From assembly GCA_046160725.1 (NCBI GenBank), contig JBJXHB010000079.1, positions 1-11,061 of the forward strand: a stretch of DNA of 11,061 nt. Reading direction: 5' to 3'. The stretch is from Aquabacterium sp. (lineage in GTDB: Bacteria > Pseudomonadota > Gammaproteobacteria > Burkholderiales > Burkholderiaceae_C). The translations under genes and the position numbers were made by a program. Within the stretch, counting starts at the first letter, position 1, and each line of letters opens with the position of its first letter. This document shows, in pieces, positions 792 to 8,084 of this stretch. A model generated the notes under the pieces. The model was not told the DNA's origin. It made no database searches and saw only the letters and a list, made by a program, of their open reading frames with translations.

Positions 792-1934
792 TCAGCCCTT
801 CAGCGTCACCAGCCCGTTGAGCACCTGGTCCAGGCCGCCGAACACGGTGATTTTGTCGATGCGCTCGGCCACACGTTCCAGCGTCTCGAGTTCCTTCATG
901 CGCAGCGCAACGGGGCTGCCTTCCATCACCTTGGCGGTGTTGAGCAGCGATCGCGTCGCCGCGGTCTCCTCGCGACGCCGGATCGCATTGGCCTCGGCCG
1001 CCTTGCCCGCCTCCACCACCTGCGCCAAGATGGTCTTCATCGCGCCGGGCAGCACGATGTCCTTCACGCCCACGCCGACCAGCTGCATCCCGTAGTCCGC
1101 GAGCCTGGTGCTGACCTGGGTGGTCACGATCTCGTCGATCACCGTCTTGTTTTCCAGCAGTTCGTCGAGCGAACGGGTGCCCACGGCCGCGCGCAGCCCC
1201 AGCTGCAGCTCGCGATACAGGTACTCCGCCGGCTGCTGCAGTTCCCCGTAGGCCAGCTGCACGTCGCTGAACCGCCAGGTGGCCGACAGGTTCAGGCGCA
1301 GCGCCACCTTGTCGCGGGTCAGGATCTCCTGCCCCGAGACCTCGATGGTCTGCAGCCGCAGGTCCACGATCTCCACCGCCACCGGGCGCTTGAACTTCCA
1401 GAACGCGTAGGACCCCGGCTCCAGCAGGCGCTCGACCTTGCCGTAGGTCGACAGGATGCCGGCACCGTGACGGGGCACCTGCACCTGCAGCACGCCGGAC
1501 AGGCCCGCCACCGCAGGCTGGCGCTGCTGCGACTGCAGCAAACGCAACAGGACCGGCGCCGGCACCTCGGCCGACTCCGCGATTTCGATCACCTCGACAT
1601 CCACCGCCACGATGCCCTTCCAGTACAGGCGCCGGGTACCCGGCGGCATCACCTCGACCAGCGCGCCGTTCTCGGTGCGCAGGCCGACCTGGTTCTCGGT
1701 GAGTTCCACGCGCAGGAACTCCGCGGCCACGACCGCGGGCTCGCGGGCCAGCAGGTAGTCGGCCAGGCCATGGGTGAACGCGGCTTGCTCCAGCGCGAAG
1801 ATCTTCACGCTCAGATCGTCCATCGGCGCGACCAGCCAATGCGTGCCGGGCTGCAGCACGCGCTCGAAATCGCCATTGCGCAGCAGCAGGCCGCGTTCGT
1901 TCTTCTTCACAGTGACACGCTTGAGCATCTTCAT
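792..1934 (-). CDS. SPFH/band-7 (stomatin/HflK-like, slipin) domain protein, 380 aa. The N-terminal beta-region is duplicated and there is no obvious N-terminal TM helix.
   Basis: Internal start MKMLKRVTVKKNERGLLLRNGDFERVLQPGTHWL of track ORF 792..2363. GGAGAA RBS 5 nt upstream of ATG (reverse complement of 1932-1934). Second SPFH-like N-strand GKVERLLEPGSYAFWKFKRPVAVEIVDLRLQTIEVSGQEILTRDKVAL. C-terminus AQVVEAGKAAEANAIRRREETAATR...KITVFGG is typical of band-7 coiled-coil tails. The stop lies 28 nt upstream of the rtcB start. Confidence 0.85.
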   Translation of the reverse strand: MKMLKRVTVKKNERGLLLRNGDFERVLQPGTHWLVAPMDDLSVKIFALEQAAFTHGLADYLLAREPAVVAAEFLRVELTENQVGLRTENGALVEVMPPGTRRLYWKGIVAVDVEVIEIAESAEVPAPVLLRLLQSQQRQPAVAGLSGVLQVQVPRHGAGILSTYGKVERLLEPGSYAFWKFKRPVAVEIVDLRLQTIEVSGQEILTRDKVALRLNLSATWRFSDVQLAYGELQQPAEYLYRELQLGLRAAVGTRSLDELLENKTVIDEIVTTQVSTRLADYGMQLVGVGVKDIVLPGAMKTILAQVVEAGKAAEANAIRRREETAATRSLLNTAKVMEGSPVALRMKELETLERVAERIDKITVFGGLDQVLNGLVTLKG

Positions 1935-2693
1935 GGTGTTCTCCGGTTGTGGGATGCGTGGGGTGGTCTGGTGACGGTGTAGGTGCCGTACAGCAGCAGC
2001 CGCGGACCGCGAATGCCAGGGCTGGGGCACCAGGGTGTGCCGAGGCCGTCTTCGGTTCGCCGGGTTGCGCAACCCCGCAAGGGGCTTCGCGCCGGGCGAT
2101 GAAGGCCGTCTCGGCTGGCCATGGGCGCCATGCCCCGCTTGCTCGCGGCACAAGCGGCCGCCGCTGATGGGCCGGTGCCCCGCTGCCTTGCGGCAGCCGT
2201 GCAACGTCCCACGTCCGGCGTGGTCTTTCGACCAGCTTCTGGGTTTCAATACCAGGACTTGCAGCGGGGGGTTGTGCCCGCCTTGAACAACGGTTTCAGT
2301 CGTTGTTCGTCTGCAGCTTCGGGCGGTCCGGCATGGACGACACCAACGGGCGGACCCGGGCATCGCCCACCAGCGGGGAGAACCTCACGTTGCAACGAGG
2401 CCCGATCCCCTGGCCTTTCGGCTCTCGCCTTCCTCAGCAGATTCGTGTGTGCCCGGGCCACTCAGCCCAGGCGCGATCCTTTCGGCGGCCGGTTTGACCG
2501 GCACGATGGTTGTTCTGTCGCACGCACTTCGGCTGTGTCCCTGCGCGAGAATCCCGTCGGATGTGGTGTCTCGCTGCACGGGGCCAGGCCCTGGACCGCG
2601 CACATCCCGGGCCACCAACACCTGTCGGCGTGGCCACGGAGTGCAGGGGCACACCCGAAGTGGGGCGATCAGAAAAGCGATCGAACAAAGAAA

Positions 2694-2724
2694 GAGGCCC
2701 GGATCCTTTCGGCATCCGGGCCTC
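2694..2724 (-). terminator. Rho-independent terminator on the minus strand. Perfect 11-bp GC-rich stem (gaggcccggat / atccgggcctc) with a 9-nt loop, then UUUCUUUGUU on the minus strand.
   Basis: Read directly. 2694-2704 pairs with 2714-2724. The plus strand has an A-rich run (aaagaaag) 5' of the stem and no T-run 3', so the terminator is oriented for minus-strand transcripts coming from >2724. Confidence 0.5.
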
Positions 2725-2942
2725 TGCGTACAGAGTGGGAAGGTGCGCGCGAACTAGTGGTGTCCTGCGTGTCCTTCACCCGGAATCGATGGGCCCTGGG
2801 CGCTGCCGCGTGGGCCGACGCCTATTGAGGCAAGGCCCAGCGCAACGCGTGCGACCACACCCCGGCCCTGTGTGGGTGGGTTGGTCCAATGGGCGCGGTG
2901 TGTCTTCACGGTCTGGCTCGGTGGGTCGATTCGGGGCGGACT

Positions 2943-2957
2943 GTAAAGAGTCTTTAC
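2943..2957. promoter_or_regulatory. AT-rich 7-1-7 perfect palindrome GTAAAGA-G-TCTTTAC, 24 nt upstream of the HTH regulator start. Candidate operator overlapping its promoter.
   Basis: Read directly. It is an AT-rich island in 70% GC DNA, immediately 5' of the ATG at 2981. Confidence 0.35.
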
Positions 2958-2980
2958 GCAGCCGTCAACCCCCTGCGAGA

Positions 2981-3394
2981 ATGTTCTTCCCCCTTGTTGT
3001 GGATCGAGCGCGGCGCGTGTCCAACCTCACTGTTGCCAGAAGGCGCAATGCCCTGGCCCTGTTCCAGGACTTCGCCGAGCGCGCGGTAGCCGGCGGCGGG
3101 TCACCGAAGGGGCTGGAGCAGGCCTTCGCGGCCCTGCTGCAGGTCTCGCCCAGCATGTGGAGCCAGGTCAAGTCCGCGCGGCCGATCGGCGACAAGCTGG
3201 CGCGGCAGATCGAGGCCGCCTGCGGCAAGCCATCGGGCTGGCTCGACGAGGAACGCGCGGCGGCCGTGCTCAGCCCTGCCGAGCAGACCTTTCTCGATCT
3301 CGCGCTGGCGGCCTACCGGTCGACGAATGCGCAGGGGAGACGTTCGCTGCGGGCTCAGCTTCAGGCGCTGATGAAGGAGCGCGACACGTCGTAG
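2981..3394 (+). CDS. XRE/Cro-CI family helix-turn-helix transcriptional regulator, 137 aa (phage-repressor-like DNA-binding protein).
   Basis: The C-terminal part of track ORF 2510..3394. The upstream 150 aa are R/G-rich junk, so the start is taken at ATG 2981 (GTG 2999 is an alternative). The HTH signature LQVSPSMWSQVKSARPIGDKLARQIEAACGKPSGWLDEE matches the Cro/CI helix2-helix3 and 'G.R.P...wL' pattern. Confidence 0.55.
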   Translation: MFFPLVVDRARRVSNLTVARRRNALALFQDFAERAVAGGGSPKGLEQAFAALLQVSPSMWSQVKSARPIGDKLARQIEAACGKPSGWLDEERAAAVLSPAEQTFLDLALAAYRSTNAQGRRSLRAQLQALMKERDTS

Positions 3395-3651
3395 CTCATC
3401 GGCAGGTCCTGTGCCGCCACGTGGCCATGGCGTCGTACCCGATTGCCTTCAGGGACGCTTGTTCGGGCGGCGCCTTCGGGCTGTCTGCGGTGTGTCGGGA
3501 TGTCCGCTGTCGTTTCGCTTGACGCATTGGCGCGGCAAGGCCCGGGCCGGCGGGCTTGGCAGCCAGAGTCCGGCGCCCGGCCCTGCGGTCCGGGTGCCCT
3601 GCGATCCTCGGCACGGGGCTTAAAGCATGAGCACTTGGCCCAACCCGGGGA

Positions 3652-3686
3652 CCCCTGCGGCCCCTGCGCCCCTGCGGCCCCTGCGG
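3652..3686. repeat. Tandem repeat, ~4 copies of the 9-nt unit CCCCTGCGG (one copy 8 nt), ending in GGGGG.
   Basis: Read directly at 3652-3690, in ORF-poor DNA between the HTH regulator and the TA module. Confidence 0.6.
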
Positions 3687-3851
3687 GGGCTGTCGAGATC
3701 GGACAACAAATCCGAACCACCGGCAGCCAGATTCAACAGATCGCTATGGTCCAAGTCACGCAAACTGGCCTCCACGAAACCCGGTGCGGTTCACGGCGCC
3801 GGTGCGCCGCAGTTGCAAGCCATCCGAGCGGGCGGCTCATGCCGAGTCAAG

Positions 3852-3880
3852 TTGCGAGGATATATCCATTTCAGTATAGT
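3852..3880 (+). promoter_or_regulatory. Sigma70-type promoter TTGCGA-17nt-TATAGT for the toxin-antitoxin operon. The spacer contains the perfect palindrome GGATATATCC (3858-3867). The -10 ends 6 nt before the toxin ATG, so the mRNA is probably leaderless.
   Basis: Read directly. The 17-nt spacer is exact and there is no SD between the -10 and ATG 3887. The palindrome is a plausible antitoxin autorepression operator. Confidence 0.5.
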
Positions 3881-3886
3881 CACGCC

Positions 3887-4063
3887 ATGAAGGCGATCAC
3901 CTTCCTGGGCAACTCGCTGGCGTGCTTGCGCGATTTCCCAGAGGACGCGAGACAGGACGCCGGTTACGTGCTGCACGCCTTCCAGAAGAAGACCCAGGCC
4001 ACCAGCAAGCAGGACATCGAGATTGCGAGAAGTCGATACACCGAACTGATGCGAGGGCGTTGA
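3887..4063 (+). pseudogene. HigB/RelE-ParE-fold toxin (HI1419 / Gp49-like 'addiction module killer' family) with an in-frame internal deletion. It encodes 58 aa against ~100-115 aa expected.
   Basis: MKAITFLGNSLACLRDFPEDARQDAGY joined directly to VLHAFQKKTQATSKQDIEIARSRYTELMRGR. The conserved N-terminus and the C-terminal 'VYVLHAFQKKTQKT' box are present, but the central beta-sheet core (~45 aa) is missing. The stop overlaps the antitoxin start (ATGA-type overlap at 4061-4065). Confidence 0.6.
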
Positions 4064-4347
4064 TGAAGAAGCGAGACAAGACCTACGCCAGCGTCTGGGA
4101 CGCCCTGGCCGACACGCCCGAGCAGGCGGCCAACCTGCAGGCCAGGGCGGACCTGATGCGCCAGCTCGCCGAGCTGATCCAGGCCAAGGGCTGGAAACAG
4201 ATCGAAGCGGCCGAGCGCTGCGGTGTCACTCAGCCACGCATCAACGATCTGCTGCGCGGGCGCGTGTCGCGGTTCTCGCTCGATGCTCTGGTGAACATCG
4301 CGACGTCGCTCGGGCGGCGCGTGAGCGTGGAGCTCGAAGCGGCCTGA
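4063..4347 (+). CDS. higA: HigA-family / HTH_37-type antitoxin (XRE HTH), 94 aa.
   Basis: MKKRDKTYASVWDALADTPEQAANLQARADLMRQLAELIQAKGWKQIEAAERCGVTQPRINDLLRGRVSRFSLDALVNIATSLGRRVSVELEAA, with the characteristic 'PRI(S/N)DLLRGR...FSLDALV...LGRRV' signature of antidotes paired with Gp49/HigB-like toxins. The track ORF 3922..4347 uses an upstream in-frame ATG. ATG 4063 is preferred because it overlaps the toxin stop. Confidence 0.8.
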   Translation: MKKRDKTYASVWDALADTPEQAANLQARADLMRQLAELIQAKGWKQIEAAERCGVTQPRINDLLRGRVSRFSLDALVNIATSLGRRVSVELEAA

Positions 4348-4386
4348 GCGCAGCAGCGACGCGCTGGCCCTTGCCGCGCAGTCACA

Positions 4387-5364
4387 TCAGGCCAGCGCTA
4401 GGAACACCCCAAACCATCCCCGCTCGTCGGTCCAGTGCTGCACATCCCGCCAGCCCGCGTCGTGCAGCAGGGCCTTGAAGCCGGGCAGCGTCCACTTGTA
4501 CGAGTTCTCGGTGTGCATCCGCTCGCCGGCGGCAAAGGCGCGCTGCCCGCCGTCGAACGACACCGTGACATCACGCCGCGCCTGCAGATGCATCTCGATG
4601 CGCGACTCGGCGGTGTTGAAGAAGGCCACATGGGCCCAGTCACGGACGTGGAAGTCCGCGCCGATCAGGGCGTTCACGTGCTTGAGCAGGTTGAGGTTGA
4701 AGGCCGCCGTCACCCCCAGCGCGTCGTCATAGGCCGGCTCCAGGATGTCGCTAGCCTTGACCAGGTCGACGCCGATCAGCAGCGCGCCGCCGCCGCTGGC
4801 CTCGCGCGCCTCGCGCATCAGGCGCAGCGCATCCTGCGGCGCGAAGTTGCCGATGCTGGAGCCGGGGTAGAAGACCACGGCCGGGCCGCCCGGCAGCTCG
4901 GCCGGCAGCTGCAGGCGCTGCGAGAAGTCCAGCCCCAGGCCCACCATCTCGATGCCGGGATGCTCCCGCGCCAGGCGCGTCACGCCGTCGCGCAGATAGG
5001 CCACCGAGATGTCCACCGGCACATAGCGGCGCGGCCGCATCAGCGGAAACAGCCGCGCACTCTTGGCCCCATCGCCCGCGCCCAGGTCGATCCAGGTCAA
5101 GTCCGTGCCGACCGCCGCGTGCACCGCGGCGGCCATCGCCGGCCCGTGCGCCGCGAAGATGGCGGCCTCGGTGCGGGTCGGGTAGTACTCCGGCAGCTCG
5201 GTGATGGCGTCGAACAGCCGCGACCCCAGCGGGTCGTACAGATACTTGGGAGAAACCCGCGCTGGCGACAGGGCCAGGCCGGCGCGCAGCTCGGCGCGCA
5301 CACCCTCCTGGTCCTCGTGATGCAGCTGGATGAAGCGCGCCGGCGCGACTTGGATGGTGGGCAT
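4387..5364 (-). CDS. egtD: L-histidine N-alpha-methyltransferase EgtD (ergothioneine biosynthesis), 325 aa.
   Basis: Track ORF 4387..5487 trimmed to the internal start MPTIQVAPARF (ATG is the reverse complement of 5362-5364). Sequence shows ...YLYDPLGSRLFDAITELPEYYPTRTE...VDLGAGDG...FYPGSSIGNF...ENSYKWT..., the EgtD/dimethylhistidine methyltransferase fold and length. Confidence 0.88.
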   Translation of the reverse strand: MPTIQVAPARFIQLHHEDQEGVRAELRAGLALSPARVSPKYLYDPLGSRLFDAITELPEYYPTRTEAAIFAAHGPAMAAAVHAAVGTDLTWIDLGAGDGAKSARLFPLMRPRRYVPVDISVAYLRDGVTRLAREHPGIEMVGLGLDFSQRLQLPAELPGGPAVVFYPGSSIGNFAPQDALRLMREAREASGGGALLIGVDLVKASDILEPAYDDALGVTAAFNLNLLKHVNALIGADFHVRDWAHVAFFNTAESRIEMHLQARRDVTVSFDGGQRAFAAGERMHTENSYKWTLPGFKALLHDAGWRDVQHWTDERGWFGVFLALA

Positions 5365-5506
5365 CGGGTTCACTGTAGCGGGGCTTGACCGACCGCCGCA
5401 CGGGTGGATGGCGGCTGAGTTGTAATCTGCGGCCGATGCGCGGCGACCTTCCGTCGCACCGGCCGGTGCCGTCCTTCGTCGTTCCAACCCTGACTGGAGT
5501 TACGCC

Positions 5507-7247: not shown

Positions 7248-8084
7248 ATGACCGCACCGACGCTGCCCGCCCCGCCCAGCCGCGACCCGGCCTGGGTGTC
7301 GCGCGTCGCCCTGCTCAGCGTGGCGGCGGTGCTGCTGTGGCCGCTGATGGTGGCCACGGAGTTCAAGCCCTGGATCTTCCTGGAGCGGGACAACCTCAAG
7401 GTCACCGGGCAGTTCCTGGCCAGCTTCCTGCCGCCGGCCCACTCGGCCGAGTTCATGGCCATGGTGGCGCGCGAGAGCTGGCGCACGGTGGCCATCGCCA
7501 CCGCCGGCATGACCCTGGCGCTGGTAATCGCCATCCCGCTGGCGGTGCTGTCCGCCCGGGTGCTGTCGGTGTCGGCGCTGTCGGGCCGAATGGCGCGCGG
7601 GCCGACGCTGCTGCGCCAGGCCGTGCGCTGGCTGCTGATCGTGCTGCGCAGCGTGCCCGAGCTGGTGTGGGCGCTGGTGTTCGTCCGCGTGGTCGGCCTG
7701 GGCCCCACGGCCGGCGTGCTGGCCATCGCCCTGACGTATGGCGGCATGCTGGGCAAGGTCTACGGCGAGATCCTGGAAAGCGGCGAGCCCCATGCCACCC
7801 AGACGCTGCTGCGCAACGGCGGCTCGCGCCTGCAGGCCTTCGCCTACGGCCTGCTGCCGCAGAACGCCGCCGAGCTGACCAGCTACACCGTCTACCGCTG
7901 GGAGTGCGCCATCCGCAGCTCGGTGGTGCTGGGCTTCGTCGGTGCCGGCGGGCTGGGCCAGCAGCTGGACAACTCGATGAAGATGTTCAATGGCGGCGAG
8001 GTGCTGACCATGCTGGCCGTCTTCGTCGGCCTGGTGGCGCTGGCCGACCGCGTCAGCGCGGGCCTGCGGCGGGCCCTGGGGTGA
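7248..8084 (+). CDS. phnE: Phosphonate-type ABC transporter permease PhnE (copy 1), 278 aa.
   Basis: Multi-TM hydrophobic protein with the PhnE/PtxC-type EAA-like loop region. Starts 24 nt after the phnC stop. Confidence 0.85.
   Translation: MTAPTLPAPPSRDPAWVSRVALLSVAAVLLWPLMVATEFKPWIFLERDNLKVTGQFLASFLPPAHSAEFMAMVARESWRTVAIATAGMTLALVIAIPLAVLSARVLSVSALSGRMARGPTLLRQAVRWLLIVLRSVPELVWALVFVRVVGLGPTAGVLAIALTYGGMLGKVYGEILESGEPHATQTLLRNGGSRLQAFAYGLLPQNAAELTSYTVYRWECAIRSSVVLGFVGAGGLGQQLDNSMKMFNGGEVLTMLAVFVGLVALADRVSAGLRRALG

What the first reader, a model, noticed from the sequence alone, without database searches (positions are those of the whole stretch)
3852..4347. Defused toxin-antitoxin module: internally deleted HigB-like toxin with intact HigA antitoxin, consensus leaderless promoter and palindromic operator
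The toxin ORF keeps the family N-terminus (MKAITFLGNSL..FPEDARQDAGY) and the C-terminal VLHAFQKKTQ box but lacks the central ~45 residues of the RelE fold. The junction ('AGY|VLH') fits a deletion between the short homologous segments 'GYxL' and 'VYVL' of a full-length gene. The reading frame, the 4-nt stop/start overlap and a full-length antitoxin are preserved. Upstream is a near-perfect sigma70 promoter (TTGCGA-17-TATAGT) whose spacer is the palindrome GGATATATCC. The ATG lies 6 nt after the -10, implying a leaderless transcript. This looks like a TA locus that lost toxicity by an in-frame deletion while keeping an autoregulated antitoxin.
Basis: partly seen in the sequence, partly recalled or inferred. 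Interest (0 to 1): 0.5.

Follow-up and report, generated by a model that had tools for sequence, protein, structure and literature searches.

The report
Decayed toxin-antitoxin gene pair
This is a small bacterial toxin-antitoxin cassette in which a 147-base in-frame deletion has removed the core of the toxin while its promoter and antitoxin stay intact, which is an ordinary and already known kind of gene decay.

Summary
The finding is real and its core interpretation holds. Window 3887-4063 (+) encodes a 58-aa remnant of a gp49/HigB-type (Pfam PF05973) RelE-superfamily toxin. Window 4063-4347 (+) encodes an intact 94-aa HTH_37/XRE antitoxin.

Intact relatives are 105-108 aa (49 of 80 genome loci found through the antitoxin). 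The window lacks 147 nt (49 codons). The junction lies between two imperfect in-phase direct repeats of the full-length gene, AGGAYGCCG-NN-TACG, which encode QDAGY and KDAVY. This points to slippage or microhomology-mediated deletion. Three beta-strands and most of the putative catalytic residues are gone.

The promoter (TTGCGA-17-TATAGT, 9/12) is conserved across phyla. So is the 5-7 nt gap from the -10 to the start codon with no Shine-Dalgarno, which supports a leaderless transcript.

- The stop/start overlap is 1 nt (TGATG), not 4.
- GGATATATCC is a window-specific palindrome. The conserved operator-like element is TATATC-N6-RRTATA, which overlaps the -10.
- The HI1419 and HigA TIGRFAM cut-offs are not met.

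About a third of the related genome loci also have dead toxins beside intact antitoxins. Decayed TA loci and orphan antitoxins are well documented, so interest is low. The deletion allele is a singleton from one MAG and could not be checked against reads.

The parts
3794..3851 (+). Upstream edge of the mobile cassette. DNA similarity to related cassettes begins here.
   Evidence: blastn HSPs of the window against L001, L003 and L006-L008 start at 3793-3796. There is no similarity further upstream and no synteny.
3852..3857 (+). -35-like hexamer TTGCGA
   Evidence: Promoter scan. TTGC is conserved at this spacing in most related loci.
3858..3867 (+). Window-specific 10-nt palindrome GGATATATCC. 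Its right part belongs to the conserved element and its left GGA does not.
   Evidence: Relatives carry ACG/GTG/TCG/ACA and other bases in place of GGA.
3861..3878 (+). Conserved operator-like dyad TATATCCATTTCAGTATA (TATATC-N6-RRTATA). Its right arm overlaps the -10.
   Evidence: One match in the window and 0.00 expected. The element is present in 58 of 80 genome loci and 43 of 44 viral loci. It is the perfect inverted repeat TATATC-N6-GATATA in 12 and 39 of these respectively. The AGTATA arm, as in the window, is found in 39 genome loci.
3875..3880 (+). -10 hexamer TATAGT
   Evidence: Conserved as TATA(A/G/T)T in the relatives.
3887..3889 (+). Start codon of the toxin remnant and predicted 5' end of a leaderless mRNA
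   Evidence: It lies 6 nt after the -10 with no Shine-Dalgarno. The same gap is 6 nt in 39 and 5-7 nt in 55 of 64 related loci. The transcription start itself is inferred.
3887..4063 (+). 58-aa remnant of a gp49/HigB-type toxin. It keeps helix alpha1, the last beta-strand with the F-x-K box and the C-terminal helix.
   Evidence: Pfam Gp49 positions 61-89 only. Alignments A1, A3 and A4. NCBI names the identical protein a RelE/ParE family toxin of an Aquabacterium sp. MAG.
3954..3968 (+). Deletion junction AGGACGCCGGTTACG, which matches both repeat copies of the full-length gene. 147 nt (49 codons) are missing here.
   Evidence: The left and right blastn HSPs to L006 overlap at 3954-3968. L006 has CAGGATGCCGGCTACG (left) and AAGGACGCCGTGTACG (right), 147 nt apart.
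3974..3997 (+). Retained family-invariant box HAFQKKTQ, which includes the Lys equivalent to the catalytic K92 of S. pneumoniae HigB and K95 of M. tuberculosis HigB-TAC
   Evidence: Invariant columns in A3 and A4. Alignment to 6AF3_A. Residue roles come from PMC9098466. The equivalence is inferred from the alignment.
4054..4057 (+). GAGG Shine-Dalgarno-like motif for the antitoxin, inside the toxin 3' end
   Evidence: Read from the sequence. The motif is kept even in loci that retain only a C-terminal scrap of the toxin: L009, L015, L053 and L064.
4061..4065 (+). TGATG stop/start junction with a 1-nt overlap
4063..4347 (+). Intact 94-aa antitoxin: an N-terminal presumed toxin-binding segment followed by an XRE-type HTH
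   Evidence: Pfam HTH_37, E 4e-26. PDB 2A6C at 1.6e-13 and 6AF3_B HigA at 1e-3. It is 94% identical to the antitoxin of L006, which sits beside an intact toxin. dN/dS against L006 is 0.11.

Best explanation
The locus is a horizontally acquired type II toxin-antitoxin cassette of about 0.7 kb. It has the toxin-first order, a gp49/HigB-type ribosome-dependent mRNase toxin (BECR fold) and an HTH_37/XRE antitoxin. The toxin gene has suffered a 147-nt in-frame deletion.

The deletion joined two imperfect direct repeats that sit in the same codon phase, AGGAYGCCG-NN-TACG, encoding QDAGY and KDAVY. This is the signature of replication slippage or microhomology-mediated deletion.

The 58-aa product keeps only the N-terminal helix, the last beta-strand with the F-x-K box and the C-terminal helix. 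It lacks beta1-beta3 and the conserved Glu/Arg residues, so it cannot form the RelE fold and should be non-toxic (inferred).

The rest of the cassette is untouched:
- a sigma-70 promoter whose -10 lies 6 nt before the ATG, which predicts a leaderless mRNA;
- the conserved dyad TATATC-N6-RRTATA over the spacer and the -10, the likely binding site of the antitoxin dimer for autorepression;
- the antitoxin's own GAGG ribosome-binding site inside the toxin 3' end;
- the full antitoxin ORF.

The antitoxin is therefore probably still made and still represses its own promoter, now without a toxin partner. The deletion is probably recent. Whether the antitoxin is now kept by selection (for example as immunity against incoming homologous cassettes) or is simply not yet decayed is open.
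For: Shown:
- Family membership and the partial domain.
- Intact relatives are 105-108 aa.
- Exact mapping of the 147-nt gap and its flanking repeats against the closest intact cassette, L006.
- The nearly invariant residues E53, R55, R64 and R70 of the family fall in the deleted part.
- Conservation of the promoter, the dyad and the 5-7 nt gap from -10 to start across the genome loci, and of the dyad in the viral loci as well.
- DNA similarity is confined to 3793-4365, with no synteny and relatives in many phyla and in prophage contigs, so the cassette is mobile.
- The antitoxin is intact and 94% identical to one paired with an intact toxin.
- dN/dS of the remnant (0.15) equals that of intact-intact pairs (0.11-0.14), as expected if the lesion is young.
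- Independent toxin lesions beside intact antitoxins occur in 27 of 76 assessable genome loci, so this kind of decay is common in the family.

From the literature:
- gp49 toxins are ribosome-dependent mRNases with toxin-antitoxin gene order (PMC11980606).
- The catalytic residues of HigB-TAC lie mostly in beta1-beta3, plus K95 (PMC9098466).
Against: - No reads are available. The deletion allele is a singleton: the cluster has one member on one contig, and no junction match was found in the metagenome collection. An assembly error or a minority allele cannot be excluded.
- Loss of toxicity, antitoxin expression, operator binding and the leaderless start are all inferred and were not measured.
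- The right arm of the dyad in the window (AGTATA) matches the symmetric GATATA at only 4 of 6 positions.
- dN/dS rests on 11 and 22 substitutions and has little power.
- The AlphaFold model of a near-full-length homologue was poor (pLDDT 57). The secondary-structure mapping of the deletion therefore leans on published structures of distant relatives.
Confidence: 0.8

Rival explanations
1. The defused state is selected rather than transient. The antitoxin, with its promoter, is kept as an anti-addiction or immunity gene that neutralises homologous gp49 toxins arriving on prophages or other mobile elements. The frame-preserving deletion keeps the operon's translation signals intact.
For: - The cassette family is highly mobile and also occurs on viral contigs.
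- Another Aquabacterium MAG carries an intact homologous cassette (L056).
- Several independent deletions remove the toxin but keep the promoter, the dyad and the antitoxin: L010, L039, L049, L050 and L069.
- Antitoxins beside dead toxins are as conserved in the N-terminal segment as paired ones (0.899 against 0.893, p = 0.73).
- The anti-addiction idea is discussed for orphan antitoxins in PMC7192599.
Against: - The 80 loci were chosen for having the best-conserved antitoxins, so intact antitoxins are there by construction.
- The conservation and the low dN/dS are equally explained by young lesions.
- No second toxin copy can be looked for, because only one contig of the MAG is available.
Confidence: 0.15
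2. The 58-aa product has a function of its own, for example as a co-repressor or antitoxin-binding partner that tunes autoregulation, or as a decoy. It would then not be an inert remnant.
For: - The reading frame, the start and the stop junction are intact.
- dN/dS of the remnant is 0.15.
- Other in-frame deletion variants of the same toxin exist in metagenomes: P0002-P0009, P0019, P0021 and P0025.
Against: - The allele is a singleton.
- The other deletion variants all differ in extent, so no common short form is conserved.
- One search returned only proteins of 102 aa or less, so it is enriched in defective forms by construction.
- Frameshifts, stop codons and an out-of-frame deletion are equally seen.
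- The in-frame outcome follows from repeats that are in the same codon phase.
Confidence: 0.05
3. The deletion is an artefact of metagenome assembly or binning, or a rare allele, and the organism really carries an intact toxin.
For: - The sequence is a MAG contig, and the allele is seen once only.
- No junction match was found elsewhere.
Against: - The repeats are only 9+4 nt of imperfect microhomology, far below assembler k-mer sizes, so a collapse is unlikely.
- Comparable lesions are frequent in independent assemblies, including long-read-sized contigs.
Confidence: 0.07

Closest known systems
gp49-family (Pfam PF05973) HigB-type toxin / XRE-HTH antitoxin modules, e.g. Streptococcus pneumoniae HigBA (PDB 6AF3/6AF4), Mycobacterium tuberculosis HigB-TAC, HigBA2 and HigBA3, Acinetobacter baumannii HigBA, and Tad-Ata
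   Same: - The toxin-first operon.
- The toxin C-terminal box (V)LH.F.K(K/R)TQ and the long C-terminal helix.
- The HTH antitoxin.
- Both genes hit the two chains of 6AF3: the toxin profile at E 4e-4 and the antitoxin at E 1e-3.
- The family description in PMC5906591, PMC9098466 and PMC11980606.
   Different: - Here the toxin lacks 49 central residues (beta1-beta3).
- Sequence identity to the solved members is low and confined to the C-terminal 40 residues.
- The conserved leaderless promoter with the TATATC-N6-GATATA dyad was seen here in the relatives. I did not find it described in the papers read.
Degraded chromosomal TA loci and orphan antitoxins, e.g. orphan antitoxins in the Klebsiella pneumoniae complex (PMC7192599) and the decay of chromosomal ccdO157 in E. 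coli (recalled from memory, not checked here)
   Same: The toxin is inactivated while the antitoxin gene remains intact. The proposed readings are the same: a decaying remnant or an anti-addiction function.
   Different: A different TA family. The lesion here is a clean, mapped, repeat-mediated in-frame deletion with the whole regulatory region preserved.
Closest intact cassette: L006 (JAOUIM010000056.1, Aquincola sp. MAG)
   Same: - 87-93% DNA identity over the whole cassette.
- The same promoter and dyad.
- The same early stop giving the TGATG junction.
- An antitoxin 94% identical.
   Different: L006 has the full 107-aa toxin and lies in an unrelated genomic context.
NE_1354-like HTH protein of PDB 2A6C (HTH_37)
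   Same: Best solved relative of the antitoxin's DNA-binding domain (E 1.6e-13, residues 24-92).
   Different: The chain is 83 residues long and aligns only to residues 24-92, not to the N-terminal segment. The depositors give no function beyond 'Helix-turn-helix motif'.

Membership tests
gp49 / HigB-type toxin (Pfam PF05973, BECR fold, RelE/ParE superfamily) | Sequence match to the Pfam Gp49 profile above the gathering score | tested here: met
   36.2 bits against a cut-off of 23.9, E 6.4e-9, but only profile positions 61-89 of 90.
gp49 / HigB-type toxin (Pfam PF05973, BECR fold, RelE/ParE superfamily) | Complete domain: beta-sheet core flanked by helices, about 100-110 aa | tested here: not met
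   58 aa, with profile positions 1-60 absent. The intact relative L006 matches 3-89. 49 of 80 related loci encode 105-108 aa. The window copy is therefore a remnant of a member, not a functional member.
gp49 / HigB-type toxin (Pfam PF05973, BECR fold, RelE/ParE superfamily) | Catalytic and mRNA-binding residues (HigB-TAC K58, E66, R68, N73, R77, K95, Q98, K99) | tested here: not met
   Only the F-x-K/KKTQ box is retained (window residues 32-37). The family-conserved E53, R55, R64 and R70 lie in the deleted stretch. Residue equivalence is inferred from alignments.
gp49 / HigB-type toxin (Pfam PF05973, BECR fold, RelE/ParE superfamily) | RelE-like fold of full-length family members | tested here: inconclusive
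   The AF2 model of P0030 has pLDDT 57. The top 36 Foldseek hits are nearly all RelE/HigB/ParE/YafQ toxins, but E is 0.019 or higher and TM is 0.38 or lower. The profile search hits 6AF3_A HigB at E 4e-4.
gp49 / HigB-type toxin (Pfam PF05973, BECR fold, RelE/ParE superfamily) | Ribosome-dependent mRNA cleavage and growth inhibition | not testable with these tools
   Needs expression and cleavage assays.
TIGR02683 (toxin upstream of HI1419) | Score above the curated cut-off | tested here: not met
   The window remnant has no hit. The intact relative L006 scores 23.3 bits against a cut-off of 62.85.
HigA antitoxin equivalog TIGR02607 | Score above the curated cut-off | tested here: not met
   14.8 bits against a cut-off of 47.7. 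The antitoxin is instead an HTH_37 (PF13744) XRE-type protein, 91 bits.
Type II toxin-antitoxin operon | Adjacent, co-oriented, overlapping small genes for a toxin and a DNA-binding antitoxin | tested here: met
   3887-4063 and 4063-4347 on the same strand with a 1-nt overlap. The same pairing is seen in 49 genome and 44 viral loci.
Type II toxin-antitoxin operon | Autoregulation through an operator in the promoter | tested here: inconclusive
   A conserved dyad TATATC-N6-RRTATA overlaps the -10 in 101 of 124 related loci. Binding was not tested.
Leaderless transcript | Transcription start at or next to the start codon, with no Shine-Dalgarno | not testable with these tools
   Indirect support only: the -10 ends 6 nt before the ATG, and this gap is 5-7 nt in 55 of 64 relatives. 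It needs 5' RACE or dRNA-seq.

The most novel reading that the evidence does not exclude
In this widely transferred gp49/HTH_37 cassette family, removal of the toxin with retention of the leaderless promoter, the operator and the antitoxin may be a recurrent and selected outcome. It would turn an addiction module into a stand-alone immunity (anti-addiction) gene against homologous cassettes carried by prophages. The window would be one fresh example, produced at a repeat-defined deletion hotspot.
Probability: 0.15. Interest if true: 0.45.

Novelty: new member of a known kind. Interest (0 to 1): 0.2.

Why it matters
For this window the result mainly corrects the annotation. The gene NCBI names a 'RelE/ParE family toxin' is a non-functional remnant, and the locus should not be counted as an active TA system.

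At family level the comparison gives three usable by-products:
- a precisely mapped repeat-mediated deletion;
- a conserved leaderless promoter and dyad operator that could be tested directly;
- a rough figure that about one third of closely related chromosomal cassettes carry dead toxins beside intact antitoxins.

None of this changes current understanding. Decay of chromosomal TA loci and orphan antitoxins are well documented.

Tried and rejected
- The homologue search with the 58-aa query returned only proteins of 102 aa or less. It therefore gave a misleading picture in which nearly every relative carried a deletion, frameshift or truncation. I replaced it with a sample taken through the antitoxin.
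- I looked for the same chromosomal locus with an intact toxin. There is no synteny in any of the 85 loci, and similarity is confined to 3793-4365.
- I searched the metagenome collection for the deletion junction (DAGYVLHA, pattern GAYGCCGGYTACGTGCTGCAYGC). The 7 hits are all unrelated membrane proteins.
- The structure prediction of a near-full-length homologue had low confidence (pLDDT 57). The fold search was only weakly indicative.
- dN/dS used to date the deletion or to show selection on the antitoxin had too few substitutions. The values cannot be told apart from pre-deletion history.
- Comparing N-terminal and HTH conservation between antitoxins paired with intact and with defective toxins gave no difference. 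The sample is biased towards conserved antitoxins.
- PADLOC gave only weak hits (antitoxin to PDC-M64C at 6e-7, full-length toxin to NsnC at 3e-4). It was not pursued.
- Rfam found nothing in the window. The single ARAGORN tRNA lies inside a transporter ORF and is taken as a false positive.
- I rejected GGATATATCC as the operator because its GGA is not conserved.

Full report
**What is in the sequence**

The window is the whole 11,061-bp contig of an Aquabacterium sp. MAG. The 58-aa product is in NCBI under the name 'type II toxin-antitoxin system RelE/ParE family toxin'. It is a cluster of one sequence on one contig.

The ORF runs from ATG 3887 to TGA 4061-4063. The next ORF starts at ATG 4063 and ends at 4347 (94 aa). 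The two genes therefore share one base (TGATG), not four. The 4-nt ATGA overlap is seen in relatives that carry one more codon.

TTGCGA (3852-3857), a 17-nt spacer and TATAGT (3875-3880) form the only sigma-70-like site between 3300 and 4700. It matches 9 of 12 positions, against 0.1 such sites expected. The ATG follows the -10 after 6 nt, with no Shine-Dalgarno. GGATATATCC lies at 3858-3867.

**Family**

The 58-aa product matches Pfam Gp49 (PF05973) above threshold, but only at profile positions 61-89 of 90. The intact homologue in locus L006 matches positions 3-89 with 89 bits.

The downstream protein is an HTH_37/XRE protein (E 4e-26). Both genes hit the two chains of the Streptococcus pneumoniae HigBA complex 6AF3: the toxin family profile at E 4e-4 and the antitoxin at E 1e-3.

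The TIGRFAM models for the HI1419-upstream toxin and for HigA are not reached.

According to the literature, gp49 is one of 13 BECR-fold families of the RelE/ParE superfamily. Its members have the toxin-first gene order and act as ribosome-dependent mRNases (PMC11980606; PMC5906591).

**Is it really a deletion?**

My first homologue search was misleading. It returned only proteins of 102 aa or less, nearly all of which themselves carried deletions, frameshifts or truncations.

I therefore sampled the family through the antitoxin. This gave 80 loci from species-representative genomes, with antitoxin identity of 70-94%, from Betaproteobacteria, Gammaproteobacteria, Acidobacteriota, Nitrospirota, Desulfobacterota and others.

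In 49 of the 80 loci the upstream gene is an uninterrupted toxin of 105-108 aa. So 58 aa is not the normal length.

**Mapping the deletion**

The closest cassette is L006 (Aquincola MAG). It is 87-93% identical in DNA and encodes a 107-aa toxin. The two blastn segments of the window against L006 overlap at window 3954-3968 and are 147 nt apart in L006.

In L006 the full-length gene contains CAGGATGCCGGCTACG (QDAGY) and, 147 nt downstream, AAGGACGCCGTGTACG (KDAVY). The window has a single hybrid copy, AGGACGCCGGTTACG.

The deletion thus lies between imperfect direct repeats (9 + 4 matching bases) in the same codon phase. This explains why it is in frame, and it points to slippage or microhomology-mediated deletion.

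**What was lost**

The family alignment shows nearly invariant E53, R55, R64 and R70 inside the deleted stretch. The invariant LHAF.KK..T box is retained.

In the solved gp49-like toxin HigB-TAC, the catalytic and mRNA-contacting residues K58, E66, R68, N73 and R77 lie in beta1-beta3. K95 lies in the F-x-K box (PMC9098466).

By alignment, the window keeps only the equivalent of that Lys and the C-terminal helix. My AlphaFold model of a near-full-length homologue was of low confidence (pLDDT 57). It did place strands at residues 51-57, 62-71 and 74-84. Its Foldseek hits were almost all RelE/HigB/ParE toxins, but weak.

Loss of fold and of toxicity is therefore a strong inference, not a measurement.

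**Regulatory region**

Aligning the upstream regions of all the loci shows a strikingly conserved layout across phyla: TTGC..., a spacer containing TATATCC, a -10 of the form TATA(A/G/T)T, then the start codon 6 nt later. The gap is 6 nt in 39 loci and 5-7 nt in 55 of the 64 loci that carry the element. This supports the leaderless reading, although no transcription start was measured.

The conserved element is TATATC-N6-RRTATA.
- It is the perfect inverted repeat TATATC-N6-GATATA in 12 of 58 genome loci and in 39 of 43 viral loci.
- It has the AGTATA right arm, as in the window, in 39 genome loci.
- In the window it is at 3861-3878, with none expected by chance.

That palindrome is most likely a coincidence built onto a real half-site.

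More distant viral relatives (L125-L136) have a Shine-Dalgarno leader. The leaderless form is therefore typical of the closer clade only.

The antitoxin has its own GAGG motif at 4054-4057, inside the toxin 3' end. This motif is kept even in loci that retain only a C-terminal scrap of the toxin.

**Mobility and context**

Similarity to all the relatives is confined to 3793-4365. There is no synteny. The family also occurs in 44 viral or prophage contigs, all with both genes intact.

In the window the cassette sits between:
- an SPFH/Band 7 gene (792-2363, minus strand), followed by about 1.5 kb without Pfam matches;
- an EgtD-like histidine methyltransferase (4387-5487, minus strand), followed by a phosphonate ABC transporter, an SMR pump and a methyltransferase.

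G+C content dips to 0.59-0.63 over the cassette, against about 0.66-0.74 around it.

**How common is this decay?**

Four of the 80 genome loci are cut by contig ends. Of the remaining 76, 27 have a defective or absent toxin beside an intact antitoxin:
- 7 frameshifts;
- 7 internal stop codons;
- 7 deletions that keep the promoter. Examples are L039 (in frame, about 56 aa lost), L050 (a 5-codon ORF), L069 (11 codons), L049 (the antitoxin fused to the leaderless start) and L051 (out of frame);
- 4 loci with only a C-terminal scrap;
- 2 loci with nothing recognisable.

Because the sample was chosen for well-conserved antitoxins, it cannot show that toxins decay faster than antitoxins.

Antitoxins beside dead toxins are as conserved as paired ones, both in the N-terminal segment and in the HTH.

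Between the window and L006, dN/dS is 0.11 for the antitoxin and 0.15 for the toxin remnant. Intact-intact toxin pairs give 0.11-0.14. The simplest reading is that the deletion is young.

**Reality of the allele**

A search of the metagenome collection for the junction found only unrelated proteins. The deletion is therefore known from this one assembly. An assembler collapse across 9+4 nt of imperfect homology is unlikely, but the reads were not available.

**Verdict**

It is a decayed member of a known TA family. Orphan antitoxins and degrading TA pairs are already described as abundant, and the anti-addiction idea has been raised for them (PMC7192599). Interest is low.

The most novel reading still open is that toxin loss with promoter and antitoxin retention is selected as immunity against incoming homologous cassettes.

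Noticed in passing
proteins P0002-P0009, P0019, P0021, P0025; loci L001-L005: Metagenome relatives of the toxin carry many different independent in-frame internal deletions of 4 to about 55 residues. P0019 joins FPEDA|VYVLHAF, close to the window's junction. The nearest metagenome loci carry stops, frameshifts and a 63-nt deletion. This list is enriched for defects because the search returned only proteins of 102 aa or less.
   Followed up: partly
L049:3980-4279, L050 about 1610-1630, L069:3963-3998: In three genome loci the toxin is almost entirely deleted, but the promoter and dyad are kept. L049 has the antitoxin fused in frame to the leaderless start (MKRSVPSKAEI...). L050 has a 5-codon ORF (MKGRS*) and L069 an 11-codon ORF, each overlapping the antitoxin start.
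   Followed up: partly
L015 about 2460-2617 and L064 about 770-923: The antitoxin, preceded only by a C-terminal scrap of the toxin, lies directly downstream of what look by eye like the ends of other TA genes: a HigA-like tail in L015 and a PIN/VapC-like tail in L064. This suggests clustering of TA modules. It was not tested with profiles.
   Followed up: no
window 3652-3686: Tandem repeat CCCCTGCGG x4 (17-nt unit x2, 100% identical), about 200 nt upstream of the cassette and outside the region shared with related cassettes. Its meaning is unknown.
   Followed up: no
window 2363-3850: About 1.5 kb between the SPFH gene and the cassette has no Pfam or NCBIfam match. This includes an ORF ending at 3394, whose C-terminal 134 aa (2990-3391) also gave no match. 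It may be further decayed or unannotated sequence.
   Followed up: partly
window 7308-7392: ARAGORN calls a tRNA-Ile(GAT) inside the ORF of an ABC-transporter permease (BPD_transp_1). Rfam finds no tRNA there. It is taken as a false positive.
   Followed up: partly
window 4361-4398: Perfect 9-bp inverted repeat GCGCTGGCC-N20-GGCCAGCGC between the convergent antitoxin and the EgtD-like gene, overlapping the latter's stop codon. No T-run follows. It lies outside the cassette homology.
   Followed up: no
L104-L117 and L125-L136 (viral contigs): Some prophage copies have an extra GATATAAT half-site upstream of the dyad. Another group has a Shine-Dalgarno leader (GAGGTG) instead of the leaderless layout. 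All 44 viral copies have intact toxin and antitoxin.
   Followed up: partly
window 3794-3851 and the equivalent region of L001, L003, L006-L008: The 60-100 nt upstream of the -35 are conserved within the closest clade and are GC-rich with internal complementarity (e.g. GCCGCCCGAGCGGGC in the relatives). This could be an insulating hairpin or part of the mobile unit.
   Followed up: no
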